Below are positions 5,986 through 43,483 of a stretch of 64,000 nucleotides of DNA, one piece after another; position 1 is the stretch's first letter; every line of letters begins with the position of its first letter. The notes beneath the pieces are model-generated. The model was not told where the DNA came from. It did not search any database and saw nothing but the letters and a program-made list of their open reading frames with translations. The DNA comes from Vicinamibacterales bacterium (GTDB lineage: Bacteria > Acidobacteriota > Vicinamibacteria > Vicinamibacterales > CAVVIG01). A program made the translations under genes and the position numbers. The stretch lies in assembly GCA_035537875.1 (NCBI GenBank), contig DATLLJ010000035.1, positions 29,358 through 93,357 on the forward strand, written 5' to 3'.

Positions 5986-6054
5986 TCGGCCATCGCATGT
6001 TATCAGGATCGCTCAAATCTGTTGGGCTATCATCGCGATCGGTTTTTCCCCTTG

Positions 6055-15381: not shown

Positions 15382-15825
15382 GTCGGCAATTGTAGCACAC
15401 GGCTTTTGGCCGAAAATCGGACCAAGACCGCATCAAAAGCATCATGTTCACTCGAGCGTCGCAGGTAAACGCCGAGCATGATGACGTCGTAATCTCAAGA
15501 GCGGGTCAAGCTCTGCCCGGCCACATGTGACGCGGATCGTGCGGATTGGTTCAGCGACAAGTCGAGACCGATTGCCTTGATCGCGCGTGTCCTGACGCGT
15601 GCTGTGCGGTCAGAGACCGTGACCGAACCGACCTGTCGCACGCCGTCCCCGTCGTTCATCTTCTTGATCGTCGGATGCTGCTCAGTCGTCTCAGCGGCGG
15701 CGCAGTGCCTGCTCGTGCCGTGCTCAGCGCATCGACGGGATAGAGTGAATCGTTGGTAATCGTTCGATTGCGGGACCATACTGGACCATTCCCGGTTCAC
15801 CTCGGGCGGCTGCAGGAGGTGGCGC

Positions 15826-30647: not shown

Positions 30648-30754
30648 AGCGCCATTGTGCCACCAACGGAAGGTTTGGGAGCCAGCCGATGGGGAACCGT
30701 GTAAAGTATCGGACCGTCGGGCACTCGAGCTACTTGAAGCAGCGAGGTTTGAAG

Positions 30755-32647
30755 ATGAGCTCGCGAACGCTGGAGATCCGCGGCAATCTCGAGAAGACGT
30801 ACGAGGACCTGTTCACGCCGGAGGCGGTCGCCGCGCTCGAGGCGCTGGCCGGGCTGGACGCCGATCGCAAAGCGATCATGACCGCCCGCATCCACCGGCG
30901 CGCCGCGCGGGCCCGAGACAGGCAACCCATCACCTTTCTCGACCCTGAATCATCCATCCCCCGAACGGGCCTACGGGTCAAAGACGCTCGAAGCGGCAAC
31001 TTCGTCGGCAGCGAGATCCCCCGCGACCTCGAGCGCCAGTGGATTCAGGGCACCGGGCCGGCGGCCAGGCCTCATGCGCCTGTGGATCAAAGCATCCGCA
31101 ACATCGCGTACGCCCTGCTGTCGGGTGCTGATGGCTGGATGTTCGACGGCGAAGACGCGTTGGGACAGATATCGACCATGTCGTTGGACAACCAGCGAAA
31201 CCTGGCCCTGGCCATCCGGCGGGACCCGATCTTCATGACGGTCGCTGAACGCGTCGCTTCTGAAATGAACAAGTGGGCCCGCGAGTTCTTTGGGCGACCG
31301 ATCATCGATGACTGGGTCAAGCAGTTGGATTTCACGACGAAGATCTTCCGGGCGCGCGGGCTCCACCTCGACGACCGTCACGTGCGGCATGCCGGCGGCG
31401 CGGGCTTCTCGGCCTCCATCGTCGATGCCACCCTCTACATCGTCCACAACCATCGGCCGCTCAGGAACGCTGGAGCGTCGCTGGTCCTGTATCTGCCGAA
31501 GATTCAGACGGCCGAAGAAGCAGCGCTCTGGAAAGACATCCTCGAAGCGCTCGAGCAGCATCGTGGCCTTCCGAGCGGTTCGATCAAGGCGTACGTGCTC
31601 GTCGAGCAGCTCGAGGCGTGTTTTCAGCTGATGGAAATTCGCGCCGCGCTCGGCACGCATTTCGTCGGCTTCAACACGGGCCGCTGGGACTACATCAACA
31701 GCGTCTCGGACGCCATGGCTTGGGACGCCGCGTTCGTCAACCCCAACATCGACGCGGTCACGATGACGTACGGTTACATGCGGAACTACGAGGATCGGGT
31801 CAGGCGCGCGGTCAACACGCCCGACCGGGACGGACGCTACGCGCTATGGCAGGGCGGGATGGAACCGAACATCCCGGTCGGATCGGAAGCGGGCGTCGCA
31901 AACGGCATGAAACGGGCCGTCAGCGGGGCCGAACGCGAGCAGCGCGAAGGCGCGAGCGGCAAGTGGGTCGCCCATTGGAAGATGGTTCACATCGTGCGGC
32001 CGGTGTGGGAAAAAGCGGGCGAGAACAATCAACTGGGCAGGCAGTTCCCCCGCCTGACCTTCACCGCTGCCGATGCTGCCGGCCTCACGCTCATCGAATC
32101 GGCGCCCCGGACAATCCGCGGCGCCCGCGACCTGTTCAGCGTGGCCCTTCAGTACGGCAACGCCTTTCTGCAGGGTCTTCAGGCGGCCGCGCTCAAGCCC
32201 GCCGATTTCTTCGGCAACGACGACGTGCTCTATCTGATGGAGGATATGGCGACCGGTGAAATTCGACTCAGCATTCTGTGGGAATGGCTGCACAAGGGGG
32301 CATTGCTGACGGAAGCCGACGAGCAGAGCCACATGAAAGCAGGCGATCGGGTGACGGTCGATCTGTATCAGCGGCTCCTTGCCGAAGAGTACGAGAAGCT
32401 GCGTCAAGCCAGCAATCGGGACGTCCACGACATCTCGAAAGCTACCACGCTGCCGATTGCGCGTGAGATCGTCGAGACATACGTCCTCGACGCCTCGAAG
32501 CTGCCCTGGTACATCGACCTGCTCAACATCAACCTCGGCGACACCGACCTTCTCGAGGCGAGGAGGCGCATCCGGCTGCTCACCGATGCGTTTCACAAAG
32601 ACGGCACGAGGATTACGGAGAACCTCGACTTCGCAAAGGCCAGTTGA
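30755..32647 (+). CDS. Malate synthase family protein, atypical length (630 aa)
   Basis: ATG 30755 is chosen because the ORF from 30569 overlaps the radical SAM gene. GTHFVGFNTGRWDYINS is a near match to the malate synthase signature (..H..GLN.GRWDYIF). MFDGEDALGQ corresponds to the DFEDS site. Confidence 0.7.
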   Translation: MSSRTLEIRGNLEKTYEDLFTPEAVAALEALAGLDADRKAIMTARIHRRAARARDRQPITFLDPESSIPRTGLRVKDARSGNFVGSEIPRDLERQWIQGTGPAARPHAPVDQSIRNIAYALLSGADGWMFDGEDALGQISTMSLDNQRNLALAIRRDPIFMTVAERVASEMNKWAREFFGRPIIDDWVKQLDFTTKIFRARGLHLDDRHVRHAGGAGFSASIVDATLYIVHNHRPLRNAGASLVLYLPKIQTAEEAALWKDILEALEQHRGLPSGSIKAYVLVEQLEACFQLMEIRAALGTHFVGFNTGRWDYINSVSDAMAWDAAFVNPNIDAVTMTYGYMRNYEDRVRRAVNTPDRDGRYALWQGGMEPNIPVGSEAGVANGMKRAVSGAEREQREGASGKWVAHWKMVHIVRPVWEKAGENNQLGRQFPRLTFTAADAAGLTLIESAPRTIRGARDLFSVALQYGNAFLQGLQAAALKPADFFGNDDVLYLMEDMATGEIRLSILWEWLHKGALLTEADEQSHMKAGDRVTVDLYQRLLAEEYEKLRQASNRDVHDISKATTLPIAREIVETYVLDASKLPWYIDLLNINLGDTDLLEARRRIRLLTDAFHKDGTRITENLDFAKAS

Positions 32648-32657
32648 GAGCGAATCG

Positions 32658-33053
32658 TTACCGGGGCCGCTTCATCACAACGGCGTTCCCTTGCGGCGTC
32701 GACAACATGAGCCCCGTTGTCTCCCACCCGTTCGTGCCGGCGGCGTTCAGCGCGGCGGTCGCGTCCGAGCCGGCCGGAATGGCCAGGATCTGATACTCCC
32801 ACTGCTGCGCCACGACTCGCGCGTCTACCACCGTTCTCGGGCCCAGTTCCACACGGATGGGCGCAACGTCCGAGGCGACTCCCTGGATAGTGACAGGGAC
32901 TGCCTCGTCCCTCTCGCGGTTCCCGATCAACACGCGCGCTTGAGTCGGTTGCCCGGGTGTCAGGGTCCCTTCCTGGGCAAACGCGTCCGGCAGTAAGACC
33001 GCGCTCGCGAAAGCCATGGCTGCAACCGCCACATACGACAGAGTCTTGCGCAT
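32658..33053 (-). CDS. Hypothetical secreted protein
   Basis: ATG 33053 lies 5 nt after GGGAGGAAG. Signal peptide MRKTLSYVAVAAMAFASA. Confidence 0.5.
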   Translation of the reverse strand: MRKTLSYVAVAAMAFASAVLLPDAFAQEGTLTPGQPTQARVLIGNRERDEAVPVTIQGVASDVAPIRVELGPRTVVDARVVAQQWEYQILAIPAGSDATAALNAAGTNGWETTGLMLSTPQGNAVVMKRPR

Positions 33054-33083
33054 CGTCTTCCTCCCGATCAATGGTGGGTTCGC

Positions 33084-33525
33084 TTACGGATGGCCGATGA
33101 ACACCGCCTGTCGAACGAAGCGGTGTTGTTCGAGCACATCGAGCACGAATTGAGCGACTTCCTTCCTCGATATCCCGCGCAGCGTGACGCCTTCGACTTC
33201 AACGACAGCCTGCGGGGTCCGCTTGGAGTCCGCGCGCGGAATATAGCCGGTCGCACAATCGTCCAAGCGTCGATTCCGAAAACAGCGTCGTCTGCCGCAC
33301 GTTGCCGGCGCCGATCGCGTAGAAGACCGCTTCCCGACCCTCGACTGCCCGCTAGACGGCATCGGAATCGAGGGCGTTGCCCCGCACCACGCTGACGCGG
33401 CCGGCGAGGTCGTCCAGTTTCTCCGGCGTGCGCGCCAGCCCTCGGACCTCATGGCCCCGGGATAATGCCTCCTCGACGATCAGCCTGCCGACCGATCCGG
33501 TCGCCCCCAGGACGAGTATTCGCAT
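33084..33525 (-). pseudogene. Decayed NAD(P)H-binding (NmrA/BVR-B-like atypical SDR) gene
   Basis: GGAGG plus ATG 33525: MRILVLGATGSVGRLIVEEAL..GNALDSDAV, then an in-frame TAG (33354-33352). Homology continues (RAVEGREAVFYAIGAGN). The C-terminal segment GISRKEVAQFVLDVLEQHRFVRQAVFIG is in another frame. The span is 442 nt, not a multiple of 3, and about 70-80 codons shorter than usual. Confidence 0.55.
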
Positions 33526-33628
33526 GACAATCAGCCTCCGTGAACGGGCCGGTCGAAAGGGCTGAAGAGCGGACTCGTGAGCGCCGAAATAGGAGGTTGG
33601 CGCCCCCCGCCGGTGCAAGGAGCCTCAG

Positions 33629-34108
33629 ATGTGGAATAAGCCAGGATCGTCCGCCAGCGACACACCCCAACAGCCCGGCAGCAACGTTCCTGCCACAGGG
33701 GGGCGAATGCCCGATGAGCGGCGAACGGTCGCCTGGGTCGGCAAATCCGTTATTTTCCGTGGCGATCTCATCAGCGCCGAAGACATGACCATCGACGGGC
33801 GAATCGAGGGGACCATCGAGGTCCGCGACCATCATTTGACCATCGGGCCGAACGCCAGCATCGAGGCAGATGTTGTCGCAAAACAGGTCACTATCTTCGG
33901 GAAGGTCAACGGGAGCGTCACCGGGAACGAGAAGGTCGAAATCCGAATCGGGGCGTCGGTCGAGGCGGACGTAGCCTGCTCGGTGCTCGCGATCCAGGAA
34001 GGCGCGCATTTCAGCGGCAAAGTCGCGATGCAATCGCCTCGCTCGCAGACCGATCAGGCCGACGGCAGCGAGCCTGCGAAGAACCGGTCAGCGTCCTCTA
34101 CTTCCTAG
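33629..34108 (+). CDS. Bactofilin family cytoskeletal protein
   Basis: AAGGAG RBS. Beta-helix repeats: VIFRGDLISAEDMTIDGRIEGTIEV..LTIGPNASIEADVVAKQVTIFGKVNGSVTG..VEIRIGASVEADV. Confidence 0.85.
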   Translation: MWNKPGSSASDTPQQPGSNVPATGGRMPDERRTVAWVGKSVIFRGDLISAEDMTIDGRIEGTIEVRDHHLTIGPNASIEADVVAKQVTIFGKVNGSVTGNEKVEIRIGASVEADVACSVLAIQEGAHFSGKVAMQSPRSQTDQADGSEPAKNRSASSTS

Positions 34109-34142
34109 ACCAGAGCAGTTCTCAGTTCCTTGGCGGGGCGGC

Positions 34143-34427
34143 GTGGCTCCGTCGCGAACTGTATCAAAACGGATAACGCCTTGGGCTGCCGGCGAAGCAG
34201 CGAACCTCGTTGGCCCCGGACCCGTATCTACCAATGTGACCAAGTTTCTGCTCTGGTGCATCCTGCTCGTGCTGTGCTGGCCGCTCGCCCTCCTGGCGCT
34301 TATCGTCTACCCGATCGTGTGGATCGCCCTGATTCCCTTTCGGCTGGTCGGAATCGCCGTCGACAGCGTCCTGGGCCTGCTGCGCGGTGTGGTGATGCTC
34401 CCGGCCAGGCTGCTCCGCGGAGTGTGA
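34143..34427 (+). CDS. Small two-TM membrane protein (start uncertain; GTG 34236 possible)
   Basis: Hydrophobic core KFLLWCILLVLCWPLALLALIVYPIVWIALIPFRLVGIAV. No clear RBS. Confidence 0.4.
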   Translation: MAPSRTVSKRITPWAAGEAANLVGPGPVSTNVTKFLLWCILLVLCWPLALLALIVYPIVWIALIPFRLVGIAVDSVLGLLRGVVMLPARLLRGV

Positions 34428-34433
34428 GCCGCC

Positions 34434-35561
34434 CTACAGGTCGAGGGACGCCGGGTAGAACACCTCCTCGAGCGACAACCGCCGCTTCGTGAGCCCCTGC
34501 TCGAACGAGAACTGCGTCAGGGCGTCGAGCATCGCCCGGTTGGCTTTGACGCCGTACGGATAGGGATCGATGTCGAGCACTTCGCGATGCGCGCCCGGCA
34601 GCAAGTCCAGGTCGAAGTAGATCGAAGCAAATTCCCGTCCGGGCAGCTGCACCAGATCCTTCGCCGCGCCGAACGCCTTGTAGACATTGAGCGCCGCCCA
34701 CGGATGCTCCTCGAGCACGCGGCGCTGGAAGACCACGCAGTGATTGGCCGGATAGAAGCCGGTCTTCTTGTAGTACCTGGCCCCCTCGGCGACCTGGTCG
34801 CGGAACAGCAGCCGCACCTCGGAACGCTTGCTCAAATCCACGCGGCTGCGGTCCACGAGATTGACGTCCGTCAAATAGAGAAGCGACGCGTCGACCCTGC
34901 CGTCGAGCAGCATCGTGCCGATGTTATCGGGGGGCTCGATGCGCTGGAACTTGAGGCCCGCCGGCGGCTGGAATCCCGTGGCGCCTCCGTGGCTGAGCTC
35001 CTCCGTGCGTTCCATGTACCAGTCCATGTCGAACGCCGTCACGCCGAATTCGTGCTGCAGCACTCCTCTGCTCCAGAGAGCAGACGTCTGTTGGTACTCG
35101 GGCACTGCGACGCGCTTCCCTTTCAGGTCCTGGGGCTTCTCGATACCCCGGTCGGTTCGGACGAGAATGCCGGTGTGAGGGAACCCGCGCAACGTGAAAA
35201 TCGGCAGCGCCACCCAACGCGTGTCTCCTTGTGAGATCGCGATGAGGAGCGACGACCACGACATTTCCGAGATGTCGAATTCGGAGAAGCGCAGCTGCCG
35301 CCAGAACATCTCGGAGGGGTGGATCGTGCTGACCGCGAGGGTGATGCCGTCCGGCTTGACCCGGCCGTCCCGGAGGGGCAGCGTGCGAGCATTGTCGGAG
35401 ACGCACATGCTCAGGTGAATGTCGCCTGCATGGGAAGGCGAGGCCTGCGTCGCCGGTGCCACCGATTGAGCTGCAGCCGACACCCCCGCCGGCACGGAGG
35501 CCAGCAGCGAGCCGGCGCCCGCCGTGTAAAGCCAGTCCCTTCGTGACATCCGGGTTCGCAT
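34434..35561 (-). CDS. Tat-exported NMT1/THI5-like (PhtD-like) periplasmic substrate-binding protein
   Basis: Twin-arginine signal MSRRDWLYTAGAGSLLA. Type-2 periplasmic-binding-fold pattern (LKGKRVAVPEYQQTSALW..). Confidence 0.7.
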   Translation of the reverse strand: MRTRMSRRDWLYTAGAGSLLASVPAGVSAAAQSVAPATQASPSHAGDIHLSMCVSDNARTLPLRDGRVKPDGITLAVSTIHPSEMFWRQLRFSEFDISEMSWSSLLIAISQGDTRWVALPIFTLRGFPHTGILVRTDRGIEKPQDLKGKRVAVPEYQQTSALWSRGVLQHEFGVTAFDMDWYMERTEELSHGGATGFQPPAGLKFQRIEPPDNIGTMLLDGRVDASLLYLTDVNLVDRSRVDLSKRSEVRLLFRDQVAEGARYYKKTGFYPANHCVVFQRRVLEEHPWAALNVYKAFGAAKDLVQLPGREFASIYFDLDLLPGAHREVLDIDPYPYGVKANRAMLDALTQFSFEQGLTKRRLSLEEVFYPASLDL

Positions 35562-35649
35562 TTGCCTACCTCCCCTTTAACGAATAATGCTCGCGCCATA
35601 GTAGATCAGTCGATGCCCGGCGCCTAGCCTCGACGTCGACCGGAAATCC

Positions 35650-37194
35650 GTGGAGTTCGGCTTGCACAACCGGGCCAGCAGCACGATACTCCCGCTAGCG
35701 CAAACGATGATCGTCCACTTCAACCAGAACCTGCAGGCCAGGCGCACCGGCACCGAGGGTTCGGGCGAGACATTCGCCCAGCTGACCGGCCGCGTCGTCG
35801 AGTCCCTCACGACCCTGCTGCAGCAGGGGGAGGTGGACGCCCGCACCTGGTCAACCCTGCGCATTCACCTCGACTGGATTCAGTACCGCGAGAACTTTCG
35901 CGACCCAGTCATGGTTCGGCGCGCGGTTGACCCGGCTGGACGACCGCTGGCGCTCGCGGAGGTGGCCATCGACCTGCGTCAGGTGACCCCTGACGGGCTG
36001 GCCCCGATGCTGGCCGAAGCGCAACGCGGGCTTCGAGGCCGTCCGGCGCCGACAGGCGAGCCCGGCCCTCTGCCGCTCGGGGACTTCAGCCCGCTGCGTG
36101 AAAGCCCGATCTGGGCGTTCAATCGGCTCTTCTGGCAGCGGCTGGCGGACTGGGAGGCGGTATCGGGGCGACCATTCGATGCGGCGCTTCCAGGAGGGAC
36201 GTCGGACGGGAATCATCCACAAGCCATCGCCGACTCGGTGGGCGACTTCTGGACGTTGCTCCGCGACCTCGAAGCACGCAGTCAGCTTCCGGCAGAGATC
36301 TTCTGCGTGGAAGTGGGCGTGGGGTCCGGCACCCGCGCGCGGCTCTGGCTCGATCGATTCAAGGCGCTCGACGAGCACTGCGGCAGTGCGTACTACCCGC
36401 GATTGAGGATGCTGCTCGGCGACTATTCGCCGAGGACGCTCGATGCGGCCCTCGAAGCCATGGGTCCGCACGCCCCCCTCGTCAGCGTCGTCGCGATCGA
36501 CGCCCTCAATCCGCTGAAGACGCTGTCGTTCCTCCGGTTCAAGGCGCTCTACGTCCACCTCACGAACGTGTACGACAACCTGCCGTTCGACGAGCTGGTC
36601 CGTCGCGACGGCCGGCTGTATGTGATTGAGGCGCGTCCGTACGTGAGCTCGGCGACGGCGCGACACCTGTCGACGGAACTCGGCGTCTCGCGCGATGACC
36701 TCCCGGGCCTCGCACAGCGGCTGCTGGACGGTGGACCGCAGGCCTTCGACGATCCCCGCCGCGGGATGCTGCTCTGGCGCTGTCTCTGGTCGGGCCTTCG
36801 TCTCGAAGAGCGCCTTCGAGCTGTCGAGGACGGGGACGAAGGGCACGTGCCGCAAGGGTTGACGCGCGTGCACCTCGACGACCTGCTGAACGAGGCGCCC
36901 TACGACGTTCGGTTTCAGGTTTCACGAGGCGCGGCCGAAAGCTTCGCCAACACCTTGCCGCTGTTGCATCCGCGCGGGTACCTGCAGGTTCAGGATATCT
37001 TCGTCCCGGCCATGGAGGACTATCGCCAGGGGTTCAGGGGCCCGGGCAAACTCGACGGCGCGGTCGTCGTCTGGGTCAACGGGCCGCTGCTGCGCACGGT
37101 GGGCGCGCGGGCCGGTTACGACGTGCACTTCGCGCCCTTCCGCTACCGCCCGGGATCGAAGACGACCACGCTCTTCACGACGCAGCGCGATTGA
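35650..37194 (+). CDS. Uncharacterised protein with SAM-methyltransferase-like (MidA/NDUFAF7-like) core; start uncertain (GTG 35650 or ATG 35707)
   Basis: VEVGVGSGTRARLWLD (motif I-like) and TNVYDNLPFDE (resembles the NE..DA.P motif of the MidA family). The rest is unrecognised. Confidence 0.5.
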   Translation: MEFGLHNRASSTILPLAQTMIVHFNQNLQARRTGTEGSGETFAQLTGRVVESLTTLLQQGEVDARTWSTLRIHLDWIQYRENFRDPVMVRRAVDPAGRPLALAEVAIDLRQVTPDGLAPMLAEAQRGLRGRPAPTGEPGPLPLGDFSPLRESPIWAFNRLFWQRLADWEAVSGRPFDAALPGGTSDGNHPQAIADSVGDFWTLLRDLEARSQLPAEIFCVEVGVGSGTRARLWLDRFKALDEHCGSAYYPRLRMLLGDYSPRTLDAALEAMGPHAPLVSVVAIDALNPLKTLSFLRFKALYVHLTNVYDNLPFDELVRRDGRLYVIEARPYVSSATARHLSTELGVSRDDLPGLAQRLLDGGPQAFDDPRRGMLLWRCLWSGLRLEERLRAVEDGDEGHVPQGLTRVHLDDLLNEAPYDVRFQVSRGAAESFANTLPLLHPRGYLQVQDIFVPAMEDYRQGFRGPGKLDGAVVVWVNGPLLRTVGARAGYDVHFAPFRYRPGSKTTTLFTTQRD

Positions 37195-37199
37195 CGATT

Positions 37200-38201
37200 A
37201 TGAGCCTACCCCCACTCCCCACCACCGTGACCGGCAGCTACTCGATGCCCGAGTGGCTGAAGCGGGCGAAGAACGATTACCTGCAGCGGCGCGTGAGCCG
37301 CCACGACCTGGAGGAGATGCACGACGCCGTCCGCAAGGGCGCGATCAAGGACCAGGAAGTGGCCGGCGTGGACGTCATCTCAGACGGCGAACTGCAGCGG
37401 GACAACATGATCGACTACTTCGCCGAACGTCTGCCTGGCGTGCAGATCGATCTGGGCTCCAAGCGCTTCTACTACGATTTCTACGACAGCGCGGTCCGGT
37501 CGAAGCTGGCCACCGGCGCGCTCGGCCTGGTCGAAGACGCCCGATTCCTGCGCCGATTCACCGATCGGCCTACGAAGGTGACGATTTCCGGTCCGCATAC
37601 TCTCGTCAAGCGTATTCAGAACCAGTACTACCCTTCGGAAGAAGCCTTCGCGCTGGAACTGGCGCGCGTCCTGAACCTGGAGCTGCGTGAGCTGGCGCGA
37701 GCCGGCGTGACCGACCTGCAGATCGACGAGCCCTACTATTCTGGTTTTCCCGAGGATCTGCCGTGGGCCGTCCGCGCCGTCAACGCGATGGTGGATTCGG
37801 TGGACGCTCATCTCACGCTCCACATCTGTTACGGCAACCGGTACGGAAAGCCGTCTTGGGAAGGCAGCTACCGGTACCTCTTTCCGACGATAGGCGAGGC
37901 CAAGGTGCACGCGATCTCGCTCGAGTTCGCACGGCGCGGCGACGAGGACCTGCAGCTGTTCGAGCAGTTCAACGTGCCCTTCAAGGTCGGCCTCGGCGTC
38001 ATCGACGTCAAGACTCACGACGTGGAGCCTGCGGCCGTCGTCGGCGACCGAATCCGCCGCGCGCTCAAGATTCTTCCGGCCGAACGCCTCATCATCAATC
38101 CCGACTGCGGGCTCGTGCATCTGCCCCGCGAGGTGGCGTTCATGAAGTTGTGCGCGATGGTGGAAGGCACGCGGCTCGTGCGGCAGGAGCTTGCCCGGTG
38201 A
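37200..38201 (+). CDS. Short cobalamin-independent methionine-synthase-like protein (MetE C-terminal domain only, core-MetE type)
   Basis: TGSYSMPEWL, Zn-ligand motifs LHICYGN and NPDCGL, acidic SLEFAR. Only about 333 aa, against about 750 aa for full-length MetE. Confidence 0.8.
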   Translation: MSLPPLPTTVTGSYSMPEWLKRAKNDYLQRRVSRHDLEEMHDAVRKGAIKDQEVAGVDVISDGELQRDNMIDYFAERLPGVQIDLGSKRFYYDFYDSAVRSKLATGALGLVEDARFLRRFTDRPTKVTISGPHTLVKRIQNQYYPSEEAFALELARVLNLELRELARAGVTDLQIDEPYYSGFPEDLPWAVRAVNAMVDSVDAHLTLHICYGNRYGKPSWEGSYRYLFPTIGEAKVHAISLEFARRGDEDLQLFEQFNVPFKVGLGVIDVKTHDVEPAAVVGDRIRRALKILPAERLIINPDCGLVHLPREVAFMKLCAMVEGTRLVRQELAR

Positions 38202-39670
38202 CCAACCACCTCGCCGACGCCCTGAACAGTCGGCGATTCTGTTACGTCGTCGAGCTCGTGGCATCGGCCCTCAAGCGCGAGGCGCAGGTCCTGGAGATCG
38301 GCGCCAGGCTGGCGACCGTGCCGGAAATCGTCGCGGGCAGCGTGACCAGTTATGCCGGCGGACGCTTCGGACAGGATCCCGTCCGCGTAGCCACCGCCGT
38401 GCGAGCGCGCGGGTTGACGCCCAACGTCCACCTGACCTGCGTCTACAGCGACCGAACGAGCATCCACAAAACGCTCAAGGCCCTCAACGCCCTCGAGCTC
38501 TACAACGTGTTCGCCCTGACGGGTGACTACCCGAAGCAGGATCAAACCAAACCGATCTTCGACCTTGATTCCGTGCAGTTGATTGAGTTGATCGCGCGGC
38601 TCCGCGAGGATCAGGGTATCCCGTTTCATATTTCCGTGGCGGTATCGCCATTCAAGTACGCACGCGAAGACTGCCTGTACCAGTATCTGAAGCTCGAAAA
38701 GAAAGTCGCGGCTGGCGCGAACGTCGCCATCACGCAGGTCGGGTGGGACGCCCGGAAGTTCGCCGAGTTGAAGCGTTACCTGGACGACCGCGGAATGGAC
38801 GTGCCTCTGCTGGGCAACGTCTACGTGCTGGGGAAGCGCGCCGCCGAGAAGATGGCCGGCGGGTCGCCGCCGGGATGCTGGACTTCCCCGGAACTCGTCG
38901 AGCGGATTCGCAGGGAAGCCGAGGCACCGGACGGCGGGCTGGAAGCGCGGCTCGAGCGTGCCGCGCAGGCCGTGGCGGTGCTGAAGGGACTTGGCTATGC
39001 GGGCGCGTACATAGGGGGGACACACGACGCCGACCAGCTGACGCGGATCATCGCCCGTGCGCGGGAGCTGGAAACGCGCTGGGAGGAGTGCGCCGCCGAA
39101 CTCCACTTCGGACGGGCAGATGGTTTCTACGTCTACGATTCCCCGAAGCCGAGAAGCCGACGGCTGCCAATGGTGGCACGAGTGCTCGACGTCACCGGCC
39201 AGCTGGCGCCGGTTACCCGGGACACGTGGCTTCGTCGGCTGCTCGAGTCGTTGTCGGCGTGGGTCGACCGACGGCCGCTCCTCGCCAGGTGGACCGAACG
39301 CTTCGAGTACGCCATCAAACGGCCCGTCTTCGGATGCCAGGCCTGCGGGAACTGCGTGCTGGGCCACATGGAATACGTGTGCCCGCAAACCTGTCCCAAG
39401 CAGATGCGCAACGGGCCCTGCGGCGGCACGCTGCACACACGCTGCGAAGTGATCGATCAGGAGTGCATCTGGGTGTCGGTGTATCAGCGGGCCGAAGCCG
39501 CCGAGCGCGTGCCCGAGTTGAAGACGTTCATTCCGGCGCCCGATCGCGCTCTGCAGGGGACGAGCTCGTGGATCAACTATTTCCTGGGCCGGGACCGCCG
39601 TCCGGCCGGGGATGCGGCCAAGGCGCGCCGGCCGCCGGTGCAGGAAACCCTGCCGGCGCGCCGATCGTGA
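38198..39670 (+). CDS. metF: Methylenetetrahydrofolate reductase (MetF) fused to a Cys-rich MetV-type (MTHFR_C) domain
   Basis: GTG 38198 overlaps the upstream TGA (GTGA). MetF-like TIM-barrel part (VELV..NVHLTC..ALTGDYPK). C-terminal FGCQACGNCVLGHMEYVCPQTCPKQMRNGPCGG. Confidence 0.8.
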   Translation: MTNHLADALNSRRFCYVVELVASALKREAQVLEIGARLATVPEIVAGSVTSYAGGRFGQDPVRVATAVRARGLTPNVHLTCVYSDRTSIHKTLKALNALELYNVFALTGDYPKQDQTKPIFDLDSVQLIELIARLREDQGIPFHISVAVSPFKYAREDCLYQYLKLEKKVAAGANVAITQVGWDARKFAELKRYLDDRGMDVPLLGNVYVLGKRAAEKMAGGSPPGCWTSPELVERIRREAEAPDGGLEARLERAAQAVAVLKGLGYAGAYIGGTHDADQLTRIIARARELETRWEECAAELHFGRADGFYVYDSPKPRSRRLPMVARVLDVTGQLAPVTRDTWLRRLLESLSAWVDRRPLLARWTERFEYAIKRPVFGCQACGNCVLGHMEYVCPQTCPKQMRNGPCGGTLHTRCEVIDQECIWVSVYQRAEAAERVPELKTFIPAPDRALQGTSSWINYFLGRDRRPAGDAAKARRPPVQETLPARRS

Positions 39671-39737
39671 CGCGGCTGCCACGGGAAAGTGTTACGCTCT
39701 TGGCCTTTCTCGCGACACCCAGAGGAGGTTACCAGCC

Positions 39738-41132
39738 GTGAGCCACAAGAATCTGGACGAGGTCATCCAAGCTGCCGGCAATCCGGTGCAGATGCTGCGG
39801 AATTCTCAATTGGGCCCCTATGTGTATCCGGTGGTGCCGTCGGAGTTTTCGAACTGGAGAGACGAGCAGCGGGCATGGAAGGAGACCTGCGTGCTGTTCA
39901 ACCAGTCGTACCACATGGCAGACATGTGGATTGAGGGCCCTGACGCGATCAAACTGCTGTCGGCCACCGGTATCAACAGCTTCGAGAACTTCCCGGTCAA
40001 CAAGGCCAAGCAGTTCGTCGGGTGCAACTACGATGGCTTCGTGATCGGTGACGCAATCCTTTTTCATCTGGACAAGAACTCACTGGTGCTGGTCGGCCGC
40101 CCTTCCATTCACAACTGGGTGCAGTACCACGCCGAGACTGGCGGGTACAAGGTGTCCCTGTCACGCGACGAACGATCGATCGCTCGAGACGTCCCGATCG
40201 TCCGGCGGCTCTACCGCTATCAGATCCAGGGCCCGAACGCCTCCCAGGTGCTGAACAAGCTGAACGGGGGGCCGATGCCCGAGATCAAATTCTTCAACCT
40301 GGGAGAAATCACCATCGCGGGACGCAAGGTCCGCGCGCTGCGTCACGGCATGGCGGGCGCCCCAGGGCTCGAAATCTGGGGACCCCACGAGGAACGCGAG
40401 GAGATTCGCGCGGCGATCGTCGAAGCTGGCGAATCGTTCGGACTGCGACAGGTCGGCGCGAGGGCATACGCGACCAACACGCTCGAATCGGGGTGGATTC
40501 CGTCGCCGATGCCGGCGGTGTACTCCGGCGAGAAGATGAAAGCCTACCGCCAGTGGCTGCCTGCGAAGGGCTACGAAGCCACGGCGTCCCTTGGCGGCAG
40601 CTTCTACTCGAACAACATCGAGGACTACTACCTCACCCCCTGGGACCTCGGCTACGGCTTCATGGTCAAGTTCGACCACGACTTTACCGGACGCGAGGCG
40701 CTCGAGAACGTTGCGAAGAACCCACGTCGCAAGAAGGTCACGCTCGCCTGGAACGCCGAGGATGTCACGCGCGCCATCGGATCGATGTTCCAGAAGGGCG
40801 ACGTCGTCAAGTTCATCGATCTCCCGCTGACGAATTACGCGTCGTTGTCGTACGACAAGGTCCTGAAGGGCGGGAAGATGATCGGGGTCTCCACGTTCAG
40901 CAGCTACAGCTACAACGAGCGGTCGATGCTCTCCCTGGCGATCCTGGATACCGAGTACAGCGAGGTCGGCACCGAAGTGACGTTCGTGTGGGGCGAAGAA
41001 GGCGGCGGGTCGTCGAAGCCAACGGTCGAACGCCACCGGCAAATCGAAATCCGTGCGACAGTGGGTCCCATCCCCTATGCTCAGCAGGCACGGGAAACGT
41101 ACGCCGAAGGGTGGCGCACCGTCCAGAAGTGA
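39738..41132 (+). CDS. GcvT-family tetrahydrofolate-dependent aryl O-demethylase (LigM/DesA-like)
   Basis: AGAGGAGG RBS 9 nt before GTG 39738. 464 aa. YVYPVVPSEFSNWRDEQRAW, RHGMAGAPGLEIWGP, ESGWIPSP, KAYRQWLP and KKVTLAW match my recollection of the LigM family. Not checked by alignment. Confidence 0.75.
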   Translation: MSHKNLDEVIQAAGNPVQMLRNSQLGPYVYPVVPSEFSNWRDEQRAWKETCVLFNQSYHMADMWIEGPDAIKLLSATGINSFENFPVNKAKQFVGCNYDGFVIGDAILFHLDKNSLVLVGRPSIHNWVQYHAETGGYKVSLSRDERSIARDVPIVRRLYRYQIQGPNASQVLNKLNGGPMPEIKFFNLGEITIAGRKVRALRHGMAGAPGLEIWGPHEEREEIRAAIVEAGESFGLRQVGARAYATNTLESGWIPSPMPAVYSGEKMKAYRQWLPAKGYEATASLGGSFYSNNIEDYYLTPWDLGYGFMVKFDHDFTGREALENVAKNPRRKKVTLAWNAEDVTRAIGSMFQKGDVVKFIDLPLTNYASLSYDKVLKGGKMIGVSTFSSYSYNERSMLSLAILDTEYSEVGTEVTFVWGEEGGGSSKPTVERHRQIEIRATVGPIPYAQQARETYAEGWRTVQK

Positions 41133-41162
41133 AACGGGCGGACCCTTGTGGTTCGTGGGGTC

Positions 41163-43343
41163 TCAAAAGCGGTGGCGGTAGGAGGCCTTGAAGAACAGAC
41201 CCCGGCTGACCGTCAGGTAGTCACCTCCCTCGGGGAGGAGGCGCTCGGCCTCGAAAACGCGCTTTTCGTACAGGGAACCGTAGCCGCCGTGAAGCACGGT
41301 TCCCGGTACGAACTCGTACGAAGCGAGGAAGTCGGTCAACAGCCGATTGTTCGAGCTGTCGTACTGTTCGATGAGCCGCACGAGGAAGTGACGGTCGAAC
41401 TGGTACGTCGCTTTGAGGTTCACGATGTGGACCGTGAAGACGCGCGTTCCATCTGACACGCGGTTGAACCGGACCGTGTCGTAATCGATACCCTGATTGA
41501 AGTGCTCATCGGGCTGCAGCGTCACGTTGAACGAGGGGCTGGTCGAACTCCCTTGAAACGGGTTCACCGGATCGTAGAAGATTTCGAGTCCCTTGTTGAA
41601 ACCGCCGCCGATCCTCAGCCAGCGGAGAATTTGTGCCTGGCCGTAGAAATTGATGCCGCGTCCCGTCTCGAATGACTGGCCGGCCCAGGGCTCGACCCCG
41701 CGGGCGTGCGAGATGTTCACGAAGCCTTGCCGCGTGAAGTTGAATCGGATGCCAGCGTTCAGAAACCATTCGTCCCCGTTCTGGATCCGATCGACACCTC
41801 GTTTGGTGAAATAGAAGGGGCTGATGCGCTTCAGCCAGAACTCCTGACCTTCTCGAGGGTAGAAATTCACTTCGCCGTACGACCACCCCGCCGTGAAGCC
41901 TGTCCGGTTGAAAAACGCGGTGTCCATCCGGAAGGCCTCGTCGTAGTGCTCGATCTGGTTCGACCAGGAAAACCTGCGGTTGTTGAAACGGTACGTCGCC
42001 TGGGATGCTGTGCCGCGGGCGCTGCCCGAGGCGAGGCCGGTGTCCGATGACAGAAACGTCGCCGACAGTGAATGAGCGGCCGAGAGCCTGAGCGAAAGGT
42101 CGCCGCCAATCACCCGGTTGTGGCGTCCCACGTGCTCGGTGTCCGTGAAGATCGCACCGACGTAATTCGACTGGCCCAGCGAATAGCTGAGGCGGCCGAG
42201 TGAAAAGAACTTGTTCTGCGGCGCGACCGAATCGCCCAACGCAGCACTCGCCTGCGGGCTTTCATCCGAGGCGTTCAGCAACCCAAAAGCGGCTTTGCCG
42301 ATCGTGCCGGTGAGCTTGCTGCCCCAGAACGGGTCGATGATCCGGCGCGTGTGCACGGCCGTCCGCATGTTCCCGTCTCCACCCGTGCCGGCCACGTCGA
42401 ACAGGCCCATACCCTCCATGAAGAACGGTCGCTTCTCCGAGTAGAAGATCGGGAAGCGCTGGTTCACGTCGACCTGAAAGGCGTCGCTCTCGACCTGGCT
42501 GAAATCGGGGTTGAGCGTCCCGTCGAACGTCACATTCGACGTGATCCCGTATTTGCCGCTCAGACCGATGTCGGCGTCGCTCGAGGCGGCCTCCCACCGA
42601 TCGCGCGAAGCACGCAGCTGGCTGATTCCGTATGTCGCGCTGGGCAGCAGTTCGATCAGCGGCGGCTGCGTCAGATTGCTGAACAGGAGATGACCCGGTC
42701 TGTCGAACACCCACTGCCCGGGCGCCATTTCGGGCCACGACGCCGACACGCCCGTGCGGCTGACGCGCCGAAAGAACAGGATCCCCATGCTCACTTGGTC
42801 ACCGCCCGAAAAACGGATGGTCTGCAACGGCAGCCGGATCTCGACGACATAGCCGTCTTCGGTGACGGCGCCGGCGCTGTCCCAGAGCAAATCTGCTTCG
42901 AAGCGCTCACCCGAGGCGGTGTTCAAGGCATCCATCTGAATGCCGCTTGGATTCACGAACAGGTGATAGGCGGTCTGTCCGGTCCCCGTCGAATCGAGAC
43001 TCAAAGCGACCCAATCGTCGTTGAAGACGTTGTCGCGGCGACTGATGGTCGTGCGGATTCTGGAAGCCTCCGTGTCGAAACAATGGAAGGCGAAATAGAT
43101 GAACCGGCTGTCGTACACGATCCGAACGTCCGTCTTGAAGGCCATCGGCTCGCCGCGCAGCGGGTTGTAGGAGATCCACCGGTCGAGGTCGAGCGGCGCG
43201 TCGTTCCACGCCTCGTCGGTCAGCTGCCCGTCGATGAGTGGCGGCGTGCTGACGCGCGCCACGTGGAAGTCCGCTTGAGCGTCAGCCGAGGCGGGCACCG
43301 CCAGCGCCGATAGAACAACGGCGACCCAGGTGCAACCTCTCAT
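41163..43343 (-). CDS. CBM9-like + DUF5916-type barrel protein, paralog 4 (divergent)
   Basis: ATG 43343: MRGCTWVAVVLSALAVPASADAQ. PPLIDGQLTDEAWNDAP, NPDFSQVESD..RFPIFYSEKRPFFMEG. C-terminal ..ASYRHRF (OMP-like terminal Phe). Confidence 0.8.
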   Translation of the reverse strand: MRGCTWVAVVLSALAVPASADAQADFHVARVSTPPLIDGQLTDEAWNDAPLDLDRWISYNPLRGEPMAFKTDVRIVYDSRFIYFAFHCFDTEASRIRTTISRRDNVFNDDWVALSLDSTGTGQTAYHLFVNPSGIQMDALNTASGERFEADLLWDSAGAVTEDGYVVEIRLPLQTIRFSGGDQVSMGILFFRRVSRTGVSASWPEMAPGQWVFDRPGHLLFSNLTQPPLIELLPSATYGISQLRASRDRWEAASSDADIGLSGKYGITSNVTFDGTLNPDFSQVESDAFQVDVNQRFPIFYSEKRPFFMEGMGLFDVAGTGGDGNMRTAVHTRRIIDPFWGSKLTGTIGKAAFGLLNASDESPQASAALGDSVAPQNKFFSLGRLSYSLGQSNYVGAIFTDTEHVGRHNRVIGGDLSLRLSAAHSLSATFLSSDTGLASGSARGTASQATYRFNNRRFSWSNQIEHYDEAFRMDTAFFNRTGFTAGWSYGEVNFYPREGQEFWLKRISPFYFTKRGVDRIQNGDEWFLNAGIRFNFTRQGFVNISHARGVEPWAGQSFETGRGINFYGQAQILRWLRIGGGFNKGLEIFYDPVNPFQGSSTSPSFNVTLQPDEHFNQGIDYDTVRFNRVSDGTRVFTVHIVNLKATYQFDRHFLVRLIEQYDSSNNRLLTDFLASYEFVPGTVLHGGYGSLYEKRVFEAERLLPEGGDYLTVSRGLFFKASYRHRF

Positions 43344-43483
43344 CGATGCATCCCGACACCTGCTGGGTGACCCGCTGGCTCGCGACAGACCGCCGTTCTG
43401 CCGCCCACCGGGCAAGTTTTCTGAAGGCTTAGACGAGCGAGGGGTGTAACCGGTTCGGTCCGCCGGCGAGGGCCCTACACCTC

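What the first reader, a model, noticed from the sequence alone, without database searches (positions are those of the whole stretch)
34434..41132. Compact methyl-group salvage operon: LigM-like aryl O-demethylase with MetF-MetV, core-MetE and an unknown MidA-like protein
Seen: four co-directional genes with overlaps or tiny gaps.
- 35650-37194: unknown protein with a VEVGVGSG SAM-fold motif.
- 37200-38201: MetE C-terminal-domain-only protein with HxCYG and NPDCG zinc ligands.
- 38198-39670: MetF fused to a Cys-rich domain, with a GTGA overlap.
- 39738-41132: 464-aa GcvT-family protein that closely resembles the LigM/DesA type of THF-dependent O-demethylase as I remember it.
- Divergent from these is a Tat-exported NMT1/PhtD-like binding protein (34434-35561).

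Established knowledge: LigM transfers the methyl of vanillate or 3-O-methylgallate to tetrahydrofolate, giving 5-methyl-THF. MetF interconverts 5-methyl- and 5,10-methylene-THF. MetE uses 5-methyl-THF to methylate homocysteine. In Sphingobium sp. SYK-6, ligM is clustered with metF and ligH.

Inference: here the demethylase is wired directly to methionine synthesis (core-MetE) rather than to formyl-THF synthetase. That would be a lignin-methoxy to methionine/SAM shunt in a non-proteobacterial lineage. The first gene has no assigned role and could be the novel component.
Basis: partly seen in the sequence, partly recalled or inferred. Interest (0 to 1): 0.65.

Follow-up and report, generated by a model that had tools for sequence, protein, structure and literature searches.

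The report
Unknown partner of a methionine synthase
A soil acidobacterium carries a tight four-gene operon whose first gene, an uncharacterised methyltransferase-fold protein, almost always sits in front of a half-size methionine synthase across several uncultured phyla, which points to an undescribed two-protein way of making methionine; the lignin-type demethylase at the end is a local add-on.

Summary
All five genes exist as described. One start needs correcting: the unknown protein begins at 35707 and is 495 aa.

- **LigM-like gene:** it is a LigM/DesA-type demethylase, 57% identical to SYK-6 LigM and above NCBI's LigM cut-off.
- **Conserved unit:** it is not "LigM plus methionine synthesis". 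The unknown protein (UNK) is followed directly by this core-MetE in 74 of 76 species-level loci.
- **Usual companions:** a fused MTHFR-MetV gene is present in 51 of 67 loci and formate-THF ligase in 21 of 60. A LigM-like gene appears in only 3 of 82.
- **UNK:** it has no Pfam, NCBIfam or PDB sequence match. Its model (pLDDT 84) is closest to MidA/COG1565 methyltransferases. In other lineages the domain is fused to MTHFR.
- **Core-MetE:** it keeps the zinc and homocysteine residues but lacks MetE's pterin-binding Trp and Glu loop.

Best reading (about 0.45): UNK and core-MetE form a two-component, cobalamin-independent methionine synthase supplied with methyl-THF. It would be analogous to MesD/MesX but linked to folate. 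In this lineage LigM adds aromatic methoxy groups as a methyl source. UNK's chemistry is unresolved. I found no description of the pair in the literature I could search.

The parts
35707..37194 (+). UNK: a 495-aa uncharacterised protein with a MidA/COG1565-like class I methyltransferase fold. It is the first gene of the operon and the conserved partner of the core-MetE.
   Evidence: No Pfam, NCBIfam or PDB sequence hit. More than 2,200 homologous clusters, all 'hypothetical', and 618 clusters at 50% identity. AF2 model pLDDT 84, pTM 0.85. Best Foldseek hits are MidA 5ztz and COG1565 4f3n/4g67/1zkd. The start is set by homologues and an independent gene call.
37200..38201 (+). Core-MetE: a single-barrel, zinc-dependent homocysteine methyltransferase of 333 aa.
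   Evidence: Pfam Meth_synt_2, E 1.6e-44. Best PDB match is MesD 3rpd at 33% identity. The Zn ligands His/Cys/Glu/Cys and the Hcy-binding Ser/Glu/Asp align. MetE Trp539 is Arg here and the Glu583 loop is deleted. It follows UNK in 74 of 76 loci.
38198..39670 (+). MTHFR (MetF) fused to a C-terminal Cys-rich MetV-type domain (DUF5981), 490 aa. Its start overlaps the core-MetE stop.
   Evidence: Pfam MTHFR 2e-22 and DUF5981 6.8e-23. Aligns to Thermus MTHFR 1v93, where LRGD corresponds to LTGD here. GTGA overlap. Present after core-MetE in 51 of 67 loci.
39738..41132 (+). LigM/DesA-type THF-dependent aryl O-demethylase homologue, 464 aa. It is a lineage-specific accessory gene.
   Evidence: NCBIfam LigM 692 bits (above cut-off 580) and DesA 715 (below cut-off 800). 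PDB LigM 5tl4 E 8e-177. 57% identity over 461 residues. A LigM-like gene is found in only 3 of 82 related loci.
39721..39728 (+). Shine-Dalgarno-like AGAGGAGG 9 nt upstream of the LigM-like GTG start, inside the 67-nt spacer.
   Evidence: Read directly from the sequence.
35562..35706 (.). A 145-nt divergent intergenic region between the PhtD-like gene and UNK, presumed to hold the promoters. No riboswitch was detected.
   Evidence: Sequence. No Rfam match at E <= 1 in 33000-42000. No sigma-70 consensus site.
34434..35561 (-). Divergent neighbour: a homologue of 4,5-dihydroxyphthalate decarboxylase (PhtD, NMT1-like fold) with a twin-arginine signal. Probably not part of the system.
   Evidence: PDB 9jp7 E 1e-55 over residues 42-373. 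Weak NMT1 match. SRRDWL plus a hydrophobic stretch at the N-terminus. No homologue in any of the 85 related loci.

Best explanation
The conserved unit is a two-protein methionine synthase that needs no cobalamin. Core-MetE (37200-38201) activates homocysteine on its zinc site. UNK (35707-37194), a MidA-like methyltransferase-fold protein, is its obligatory partner and supplies or presents the methyl group. This is the role MesX plays for MesD, or the second barrel plays in split or full-length MetE.

The methyl group comes from the tetrahydrofolate C1 pool. The translationally coupled MTHFR-MetV fusion (38198-39670) makes 5-methyl-THF from 5,10-methylene-THF. In this Vicinamibacterales lineage a LigM-type demethylase (39738-41132) adds a second route, taking methyl groups directly from methoxylated aromatics such as vanillate or 3-O-methylgallate.

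**Shown**
- The gene identities and the operon structure.
- The near-universal UNK/core-MetE adjacency.
- Fusions of the UNK domain to MTHFR.
- Retention of the zinc and homocysteine residues, and loss of MetE's pterin residues.
- The MidA-like fold of UNK.

**Inferred**
- That the product is methionine.
- That UNK is required.
- That the donor is methyl-THF.
- How UNK acts, whether by binding methyl-THF polyglutamate or by another mechanism.
For: **Adjacency**
- UNK is followed directly by this core-MetE clade in 74 of 76 GTDB species loci that have room for it.
- In the reverse direction, 3 of 3 core-MetE homologues looked up have a Pfam-less ORF directly upstream. These are 482 and 514 aa, and a shorter 382-aa one.
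- The trio is also present in Ktedonobacteraceae, where UNK is about 43% identical.

**Fusions**
- MTHFR-DUF5981-UNK occurs in P0162 and P0177.
- MTHFR-UNK occurs in P0239.
- UNK-MTHFR occurs in P0267/P0271 from Binataceae.
- These tie UNK to the enzyme that makes or uses methyl-THF.

**Folate context**
- MTHFR-MetV is present in 51 of 67 loci.
- Formate-THF ligase is present in 21 of 60, in 7 of them directly after core-MetE.

**Core-MetE active site**
- The Zn ligands and the Ser/Glu/Asp that bind homocysteine align with MesD 3rpd and T. maritima MetE. The residue roles come from PMC7857596.
- Trp539 is Arg and the Glu583 loop is absent (roles from PMC539065). The protein alone is therefore unlikely to bind methyl-THF as MetE does.

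**Precedent**
- Core synthases need a partner; MesD needs MesX (PMC7857596).

**Operon**
- A 5-nt gap and a GTGA overlap indicate co-translation.
Against: **UNK looks like a SAM enzyme**
- It has an E-x-G-x-G-x-G motif, an acidic residue after strand 2, and an N-V-Y-D-N-L-P motif that corresponds, as I recall it, to the ANExxDALP motif of MidA.
- SAM cannot be the net methyl source for methionine, a point PMC7857596 makes for Mmp10.
- I know of no class I methyltransferase fold that uses methyl-THF.

**Weaknesses in the context evidence**
- MTHFR-MetV is absent from about a quarter of the loci.
- No SAM, THF or cobalamin riboswitch was found in the window or in eight diverse loci.
- No methionine-pathway genes are consistently nearby.

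**Not tested**
- I could not check whether these genomes lack MetE and MetH.
- There are no experimental data, because every carrier is an uncultured MAG.

**A further caution**
- Core-MetE is 75-78% identical across phyla. That suggests a horizontally mobile accessory module rather than a housekeeping gene.
Confidence: 0.45

Rival explanations
1. UNK is a genuine SAM-dependent methyltransferase with its own, unknown substrate. The rest of the operon is a dedicated methyl-cycle supply line: core-MetE re-methylates homocysteine, MTHFR-MetV, FTHFS and LigM feed methyl-THF, and together they sustain a high flux through that one methylation.
For: - The fold and motifs of a class I SAM methyltransferase are conserved.
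- Four of 52 family members give weak Methyltransf_28 hits, and a Binataceae relative hits it at 1e-7.
- The nearest structures are MidA protein-arginine methyltransferases.
Against: - MetK and SAH hydrolase would be needed for such a cycle but are not conserved neighbours.
- This reading leaves unexplained how a core-MetE without MetE's pterin residues uses methyl-THF.
- Fusion of UNK to MTHFR itself is not expected for an unrelated methylation.
Confidence: 0.2
2. UNK is a regulatory or maturation factor rather than a catalytic partner. It could be a SAM-sensing subunit that throttles MTHFR and methionine synthase, as the SAM-binding regulatory domain of eukaryotic MTHFR does. Or it could be a MidA-like protein methyltransferase that modifies core-MetE or MTHFR-MetV.
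For: - The MTHFR-UNK fusion (P0239) has a catalytic domain followed by a second, putatively SAM-binding domain. That is the same order as type 1 eukaryotic MTHFR, which has an N-terminal catalytic and a C-terminal regulatory domain (PMC11868366).
- MidA, the closest fold, methylates a protein arginine (title of PDB entry 5ztz).
- In the MTHFR-fused relatives the glycine-rich loop is degenerate (EIGVAS, EIGTAG), as might be expected for a binding rather than catalytic role.
Against: - UNK is large, comes first in the operon, and is about 60% identical across phyla with many invariant charged residues. That degree of constraint is unusual for a regulator.
- Its N-x-x-D-N-L-P motif is conserved even in remote members. 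By analogy with MidA (from memory) this motif is catalytic.
Confidence: 0.15
3. The module is catabolic. Methyl-THF released by demethylases (LigM here, Dmd-like or other enzymes elsewhere) is oxidised by MTHFR-MetV and passed on to formate by FTHFS, as in the SYK-6 ligM-metF-ligH operon. UNK and core-MetE are a side branch that drains or senses methyl-THF, or a demethylase acting on an S-methyl compound.
For: - ligM-metF-ligH is a known catabolic operon whose MTHFR runs in the oxidising direction (PMC11868366).
- An Acidimicrobiia locus holds MTHFR-MetV, FTHFS, a LigM-like gene, UNK and core-MetE together.
- Methylomirabilota loci carry the trio among acyl-CoA dehydrogenase, enoyl-CoA hydratase, acyl-CoA ligase and methylcitrate-cycle genes. 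As I recall it, this set resembles DmdBCD.
- PQQ dehydrogenases sit upstream in several loci.
Against: - LigM-like genes occur in only 3 of 82 loci, so most modules have no demethylase nearby.
- The MTHFR here is the Fe-S (MetV) type, which the SYK-6 study classes with the CH2-THF-reducing MTHFRs (type 3), not the oxidising type 4.
- From general biochemistry, methyl transfer from a thioether such as methionine to THF is thermodynamically unfavourable.
- The window has no ring-cleavage genes in 64 kb.
Confidence: 0.15

Closest known systems
MesD/MesX, a core methionine synthase with an obligatory partner protein (Price et al. 2021, PMC7857596)
   Same: - A single-barrel MetE-like enzyme with intact Zn and homocysteine residues.
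- It sits almost invariably next to one uncharacterised partner gene.
- MesD is the best PDB match of the window's core-MetE (3rpd, E 5e-48).
   Different: - Only 33% identity to MesD.
- The partner is a 495-aa MidA-like methyltransferase-fold protein, not DUF1852.
- MesD/MesX does not need MetF. Here the pair is clustered with MTHFR-MetV and FTHFS, and the partner is fused to MTHFR in some lineages.
- Oxygen dependence is unknown.
Split MetE of archaea: separate Meth_synt_1 and Meth_synt_2 proteins (PMC7857596)
   Same: - A catalytic half-MetE encoded next to a second protein presumed to complete a folate-using enzyme.
- The best NCBIfam match of the window protein is the single-domain 'methionine synthase' model PRK04326 (286 bits).
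   Different: - The score is below that model's cut-off of 406.
- The neighbour is not a Meth_synt_1 barrel.
- No other Meth_synt-like ORF exists in the 64-kb window.
ligM-metF-ligH operon of Sphingobium lignivorans SYK-6 (PMC11868366)
   Same: - A LigM-type THF-dependent O-demethylase is co-transcribed with an MTHFR.
- In related loci an FTHFS (ligH equivalent) is present too.
- Methyl-THF from methoxy groups feeds methionine.
   Different: - The MTHFR here carries a fused Fe-S MetV-type domain (type 3-like), not the type 4 oxidising enzyme.
- A methionine-synthase pair is in the same operon.
- The host is an acidobacterium.
- No ring-cleavage genes are nearby.
MidA / NDUFAF7 / COG1565 (Pfam Methyltransf_28), a protein arginine methyltransferase
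   Same: - The closest fold to the UNK model (Foldseek E 7e-8 to 4e-7).
- A motif I glycine loop, an acidic residue after strand 2, and an N-x-x-D-N-L-P motif in place of ANExxDALP (the MidA motif is from memory).
   Different: - 11-13% identity and TM-scores of only 0.35-0.54.
- No Pfam hit for the window protein.
- UNK is about 100 residues longer, with an extra N-terminal domain.
- A completely different gene context.
MetFV-type (Fe-S subunit) methylene-THF reductases of acetogens, type 3 in PMC11868366
   Same: An MTHFR catalytic domain together with the Cys-rich MetV module (PF12225).
   Different: - The two are fused in one polypeptide, in the order MetF then MetV.
- No Hdr, Mvh or Rnf partners are present.
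- The hosts are soil lineages that encode c-type cytochromes and PQQ dehydrogenases, not acetogens.

Membership tests
LigM/DesA THF-dependent aryl O-demethylases | Score at or above NCBI's curated cut-off for the LigM equivalog model (NF047885) | tested here: met
   692.2 bits against a cut-off of 580.
LigM/DesA THF-dependent aryl O-demethylases | Score at or above the cut-off for the DesA (syringate) equivalog model (NF047633) | tested here: not met
   715.5 bits against a cut-off of 800. Substrate preference (vanillate/3-O-methylgallate or syringate) is therefore open.
LigM/DesA THF-dependent aryl O-demethylases | Full-length similarity to the solved LigM structure, well separated from GcvT and DmdA | tested here: met
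   5tl4 E 8e-177 over residues 4-461. 57% identity. GcvT models score 85 bits or less and DmdA 32 bits.
LigM/DesA THF-dependent aryl O-demethylases | Catalytic Tyr247 with His60, Tyr29/Tyr31 and Arg122 (residue roles recalled from Kohler et al. 2017, not read here) | tested here: met
   In the LigM alignment GSRAYPSN corresponds to GARAYATN, HHMVD to YHMAD, AYVYPVV to PYVYPVV, and YVGRAP to LVGRPS.
LigM/DesA THF-dependent aryl O-demethylases | THF-dependent O-demethylation of vanillate, 3-O-methylgallate or syringate | not testable with these tools
   Needs an enzyme assay.
Canonical MetE (EC 2.1.1.14) | Two barrels (Meth_synt_1 N-terminal plus Meth_synt_2 C-terminal) and the TIGR01371 cut-off | tested here: not met
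   333 aa. TIGR01371 scores 122.9 bits against a cut-off of 929.95, and only model positions 422-754 are matched.
Canonical MetE (EC 2.1.1.14) | Zn ligands His/Cys/Glu/Cys and homocysteine-binding Ser/Glu/Asp | tested here: met
   HICYG, SLEF, NPDCG, GSYS, SDGE and IDEP align with the corresponding residues of 3rpd and 1xpg. Residue roles are from PMC7857596.
Canonical MetE (EC 2.1.1.14) | Pterin-binding Trp539 and Glu583 of the C-terminal barrel (T. maritima numbering, PMC539065) | tested here: not met
   Trp539 aligns with Arg. Glu583 lies in an 8-residue loop that is deleted here. DMV is NMI. The Arg496 equivalent is kept.
MesD/MesX | Close homology to MesD (Price et al. used about 55% identity or more) and an adjacent DUF1852 (MesX) | tested here: not met
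   33% identity to MesD 3rpd. The neighbour has no DUF1852 or any other Pfam hit.
Split MetE | A catalytic subunit close to the archaeal PF1269 type, and a separate Meth_synt_1-type subunit | tested here: inconclusive
   The best NCBIfam model, PRK04326, scores 286 bits, below its cut-off of 406. PF1269 itself was not compared. The window has no Meth_synt_1-type ORF.
MetFV-type MTHFR | An MTHFR catalytic domain plus a Cys-rich MetV domain (PF12225) | tested here: met
   PF02219 at 80.3 bits and PF12225 at 80.6 bits, both above their cut-offs, in one polypeptide.
MetFV-type MTHFR | Flavin and Fe-S cofactors, identity of the electron donor, and direction of the reaction | not testable with these tools
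   Needs biochemistry.
Type 4 (S6MTHFR-type) oxidising MTHFR | Three motifs (Leu48-Pro49, Arg78, Pro268) that block NADH binding (PMC11868366) | not tested
The presence of a MetV domain argues for type 3.
MidA/COG1565 (Pfam PF02636) | A match to PF02636 at its gathering score | tested here: not met
   No hit for the window protein. Only 4 of 52 family members give weak hits, best E 0.0033. A remote Binataceae relative hits at 1e-7.
MidA/COG1565 (Pfam PF02636) | Fold similarity to solved MidA/COG1565 structures | tested here: met
   The top six Foldseek PDB hits are 5ztz, 4f3n, 5zu0, 4g67 and 1zkd (chains A and B). E-values run from 7e-8 to 2e-6 and TM-scores from 0.35 to 0.54. The model has pLDDT 84.
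MidA/COG1565 (Pfam PF02636) | SAM binding and protein arginine methylation | not testable with these tools
   Only the motifs could be examined.
4,5-dihydroxyphthalate decarboxylase (PhtD) | Homology to the solved enzyme and a cytoplasmic location | tested here: inconclusive
   E 1e-55 to 9jp7 over residues 42-373. The window protein has an additional twin-arginine signal peptide, which suggests export.

The most novel reading that the evidence does not exclude
UNK is a new kind of methyl-transfer protein. A MidA-like class I methyltransferase fold has been re-purposed to take the methyl group of 5-methyl-THF, made on the spot by the adjacent or fused MTHFR-MetV. It hands that methyl to homocysteine held on a core-MetE.

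This would be a fifth, folate-dependent and cobalamin-independent family of two-component methionine synthases. It would serve as a major route to methionine in abundant uncultured soil phyla: Vicinamibacterales, Methylomirabilota/Rokubacteria, Binatia, and some Actinomycetota and Chloroflexota.
Probability: 0.3. Interest if true: 0.85.

Novelty: new variant of a known kind. Interest (0 to 1): 0.68.

Why it matters
- **An open question in methionine synthesis.** Price et al. 2021 left the methyl donor of partner-dependent core synthases unresolved. Here a different partner family is tied by gene fusion to MTHFR, so the donor question becomes directly testable.
- **A large unannotated family.** UNK has more than 2,200 clusters at 90% identity and no Pfam model. 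It is found mainly in uncultured but very abundant soil and groundwater lineages, so methionine and B12-dependence predictions for those organisms may currently be wrong.
- **An ecological link.** In this lineage the added LigM-type gene, with no ring-cleavage genes nearby, suggests that plant-derived methoxy groups are harvested as C1 units for methylation rather than as a carbon source.

Tried and rejected
- **Riboswitch upstream of the operon.** A SAM, THF or cobalamin riboswitch would have supported a biosynthetic role. None was found in window 33000-42000 at E <= 1, nor in eight diverse loci at gathering thresholds.
- **Sigma-70 promoter and terminator scans.** Uninformative.
- **The Phaeocystis 'MetE-fusion'.** This is a different architecture of PKS/PP-binding, MetE and CzcO domains.
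- **Second Meth_synt_2 paralogue as the missing folate barrel.** The paralogue lies next to UNK in Rokubacteria and Acidimicrobiia. I rejected the idea because it keeps all the Zn ligands and is absent from the window.
- **Literature searches.** Searches for a described UNK/core-MetE system (MesX, DUF1852, split MetE, GapMind 2026, the Phaeobacter Mes-like enzyme) found nothing relevant.
- **The PhtD-like protein as part of the system.** Rejected because it is not conserved in any related locus.
- **Unbiased clustering of neighbouring genes.** It found no MetK, SAH hydrolase or homocysteine-pathway genes among the conserved neighbours.

Full report
**1. Observation**

The region holds five ORFs. 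On the - strand lies a 375-aa gene (34434-35561). On the + strand lie genes of 495 or 514 aa (35707 or 35650 to 37194), 333 aa (37200-38201), 490 aa (38198-39670) and 464 aa (39738-41132).

The core-MetE is 100% identical to a protein of a Vicinamibacterales MAG. An independent gene call on that 137-kb contig gives the same five genes, with the unknown protein at 495 aa.

The junctions are tight:
- a 5-nt gap between UNK and core-MetE;
- a GTGA stop/start overlap between core-MetE and the MTHFR fusion;
- a 67-nt spacer with AGAGGAGG before the last gene.

**2. Identities**

- **LigM-like gene.**
  - It passes NCBI's LigM equivalog cut-off (692 against 580 bits). It scores even higher on the DesA model but stays below that cut-off (715 against 800). 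GcvT scores 85 and DmdA 32.
  - It aligns over its full length to SYK-6 LigM (5tl4, E 8e-177, 57% identity).
  - The residues I recall as catalytic or substrate-binding (Tyr247, His60, Tyr29/31, Arg122) are conserved in that alignment.
The gene is a LigM/DesA-type demethylase whose substrate is undecided.
- **MTHFR fusion.** The third gene is MTHFR plus DUF5981, the MetV-type Cys-rich domain.
- **Core-MetE.** The second gene is a single Meth_synt_2 barrel. Its best solved relative is MesD (3rpd, E 5e-48, 33% identity).
- **Divergent gene.** It is a homologue of 4,5-dihydroxyphthalate decarboxylase (9jp7, E 1e-55) with a twin-arginine signal.
- **UNK.** The first gene has no Pfam, NCBIfam or PDB sequence match.

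**3. What is conserved**

UNK has more than 2,200 homologous clusters, all unnamed and without Pfam domains, at 59-94% identity. A search without a word index finds 618 clusters at 50% identity.

In one genome per GTDB species, 246 loci encode it. The best 80 are all MAGs, mostly Acidobacteriota/Vicinamibacterales and Methylomirabilota/Rokubacteria. A few come from Binatia, Acidimicrobiia and Miltoncostaeaceae.

I scored those loci with the window's own proteins:

| Feature next to UNK | Loci with it / loci with room |
|---|---|
| Core-MetE clade directly downstream | 74 / 76 |
| MTHFR-MetV fusion | 51 / 67 |
| Formate-THF ligase (Pfam) | 21 / 60 (14 after MTHFR-MetV, 7 directly after core-MetE) |
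| LigM-like gene anywhere in the locus | 3 / 82 (two closest relatives and one Acidimicrobiia locus) |

- **Reverse check.** I looked up three core-MetE homologues from other lineages. All three have a Pfam-less ORF directly upstream, of 482, 382 and 514 aa.
- **Other lineages.** Ktedonobacteraceae (Chloroflexota), with UNK about 43% identical, also has the trio. One Acidimicrobiia contig carries MTHFR-MetV, FTHFS, a LigM-like gene, UNK and core-MetE together.
- **Conclusion.** The unit under selection is UNK plus core-MetE, embedded in THF C1 enzymes. LigM is an accessory of this lineage. The PhtD-like gene has no homologue in any related locus.

**4. UNK**

- **Fusions.** Remote members of the family are fused to MTHFR in both orders.
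  - MTHFR-DUF5981-UNK in P0162 and P0177, about 1,200 aa.
  - MTHFR-UNK in P0239.
  - UNK-MTHFR in a Binataceae protein, whose UNK part hits Pfam Methyltransf_28 (the MidA family) at 1e-7.
- **Structure.** An AlphaFold2 model from 52 sequences has pLDDT 84 and pTM 0.85. Its best PDB neighbours are MidA (5ztz, 5zu0) and COG1565 proteins (4f3n, 4g67, 1zkd) at E 7e-8 to 2e-6 and TM 0.35-0.54. Generic class I SAM methyltransferases follow.
- **Motifs.**
  - E-I-G-V-G-S-G, an acidic residue in LLGDYS, and N-V-Y-D-N-L-P are nearly invariant in the core-MetE-linked clade.
  - In the MTHFR-fused relatives the glycine loop degenerates to EIGVAS or EIGTAG.
  - N-x-x-D-N-L-P, LLHPxG and GP(G/A)KxDGSxVxWxN persist in all members.
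- **Residue content.** There is no invariant cysteine, and there are many invariant arginines.

UNK is not a member of PF02636 by Pfam's own criterion.

**5. The core-MetE**

- **Retained.** Against MesD (3rpd) and T. maritima MetE (1xpg), the Zn ligands (HICYG, SLEF, NPDCG) and the homocysteine-binding Ser, Glu and Asp are all present (roles from PMC7857596).
- **Lost.** The C-terminal-barrel residues that hold the pterin in MetE are not. Trp539 aligns with Arg, Glu583 lies in a deleted 8-residue loop, and DMV is NMI. The Arg496 equivalent remains (roles from PMC539065).
- **Classification.**
  - It is not MesD: 33% identity and no DUF1852 neighbour.
  - It is not full-length MetE: TIGR01371 scores 123 against a cut-off of 930.
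  - It is below the cut-off of its best NCBIfam model, PRK04326 (286 against 406).
  - The window has no Meth_synt_1-type ORF.
- **Conservation.** The clade is very conserved, 75-78% identical across phyla. That suggests spread as a mobile module.

**6. Mechanism**

The simplest account of the adjacency, the fusions and the residue pattern is as follows. UNK and core-MetE together methylate homocysteine. The methyl group originates in the THF pool, made by MTHFR-MetV and ultimately from formate via FTHFS in many lineages. Here it also comes from aryl methoxy groups via LigM. This parallels MesD/MesX, where a core synthase is inactive without its partner (PMC7857596), but with a folate link that MesD lacks.

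The weak point is UNK's chemistry. Its motifs look like a SAM enzyme, SAM cannot be the net methyl source, and I know of no class I fold that uses methyl-THF.

The rival readings are:
- a SAM-dependent methylation served by a private methyl cycle;
- a SAM-sensing or protein-modifying accessory of MTHFR or MetE;
- a catabolic methyl-THF oxidation module of the SYK-6 ligM-metF-ligH type (PMC11868366), with the synthase as a side branch.

The catabolic reading has several points against it. LigM-like genes are rare near the module. The MetV-type MTHFR is classed with the reductive MTHFRs. The 64 kb contains no ring-cleavage genes.

No riboswitch was found, and no methionine-pathway genes are conserved nearby. 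Direct support for a biosynthetic role is therefore limited to the active-site residues and the analogy.

**7. Comparison and novelty**

- **Already known:** LigM-type demethylases, MetFV-type MTHFR, core-MetE enzymes, and the idea that LigM-derived methyl-THF feeds methionine (PMC11868366).
- **Not found in the searchable literature:** the UNK family, its near-obligate pairing with a distinct core-MetE clade, and its fusion to MTHFR.

I file this as a new variant of a known kind: a partner-dependent core methionine synthase. There is a realistic chance (about 0.3) that the partner's chemistry is new.

**8. Verdict**

The interesting object is the UNK/core-MetE pair rather than the LigM wiring. 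Interest is 0.68.

Noticed in passing
window 15826-18159, 18308-20668, 20703-23003 (+) and 41163-43640 (-): Four paralogous proteins of roughly 770-830 aa with CBM9-like and DUF5916 domains. Three are in tandem. The fourth converges on the end of the LigM-like gene.
   Followed up: no
window 29157-30647 (-) and about 30690-32647 (+): A B12-binding radical SAM enzyme lies divergent from a malate-synthase-like protein that also gives a weak DUF6986 match. The longest ORFs overlap, but the independent gene call gives 489 and 652 aa without overlap.
   Followed up: partly
window 5797-8091 (+): A 764-aa protein with two class I methyltransferase domains (Methyltransf_11/25 around residues 420-540 and an MTS/PrmA-like domain around 157-223).
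   Followed up: no
L054:8676-9824, L058:2429-3565 (also L048, L050, L052, L053, L057, L059, L062, L091, L092): A second, divergent Meth_synt_2 paralogue of about 380 aa sits just upstream of UNK in Rokubacteria and Acidimicrobiia loci. In the two copies aligned (L054, L058) it keeps the His/Cys/Glu/Cys zinc ligands, so it is another core-MetE-like enzyme and not a degenerate folate barrel. It is absent from the window.
   Followed up: partly
L004:6856-8004 and L004:11990-15310; L003: In Methylomirabilota the trio is embedded among genes for acyl-CoA dehydrogenase, enoyl-CoA hydratase, an AMP-forming ligase, another Meth_synt_2 protein, and citrate synthase/aconitase/PrpF. As I recall it, this set resembles DmdBCD plus the methylcitrate cycle.
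   Followed up: no
L026:7589-9970, L028:7843-9963, L001:1258-3306 and 14786-16891: PQQ-dependent alcohol-dehydrogenase-like genes lie directly upstream of UNK or flank it; the upstream family is found in about eight Acidobacteriota loci. One carries a C-terminal cupredoxin domain. This hints at a wider C1 or alcohol oxidation context.
   Followed up: no
L088:7001-15592 (P0260): A UNK-like domain (about 32% identity) lies inside a 2,863-aa Omnitrophica protein that also has AceK and HMGL-like domains. Its neighbours are giant proteins with malate synthase/aldolase and isocitrate lyase/PEP-mutase domains.
   Followed up: no
L093:3741-4250: A fragment of SAM synthetase (S-AdoMet_synt_C, 169 aa) lies about 1.7 kb upstream of a core-MetE homologue, which is preceded by a shortened 382-aa Pfam-less ORF. 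This may reflect frameshifts in the assembly.
   Followed up: no
window 1-64000: No protocatechuate or gallate ring-cleavage genes, and no vanillate transporters, were found among the roughly 35 window ORFs scanned. The fate of the demethylated aromatic product is therefore not encoded nearby.
   Followed up: partly
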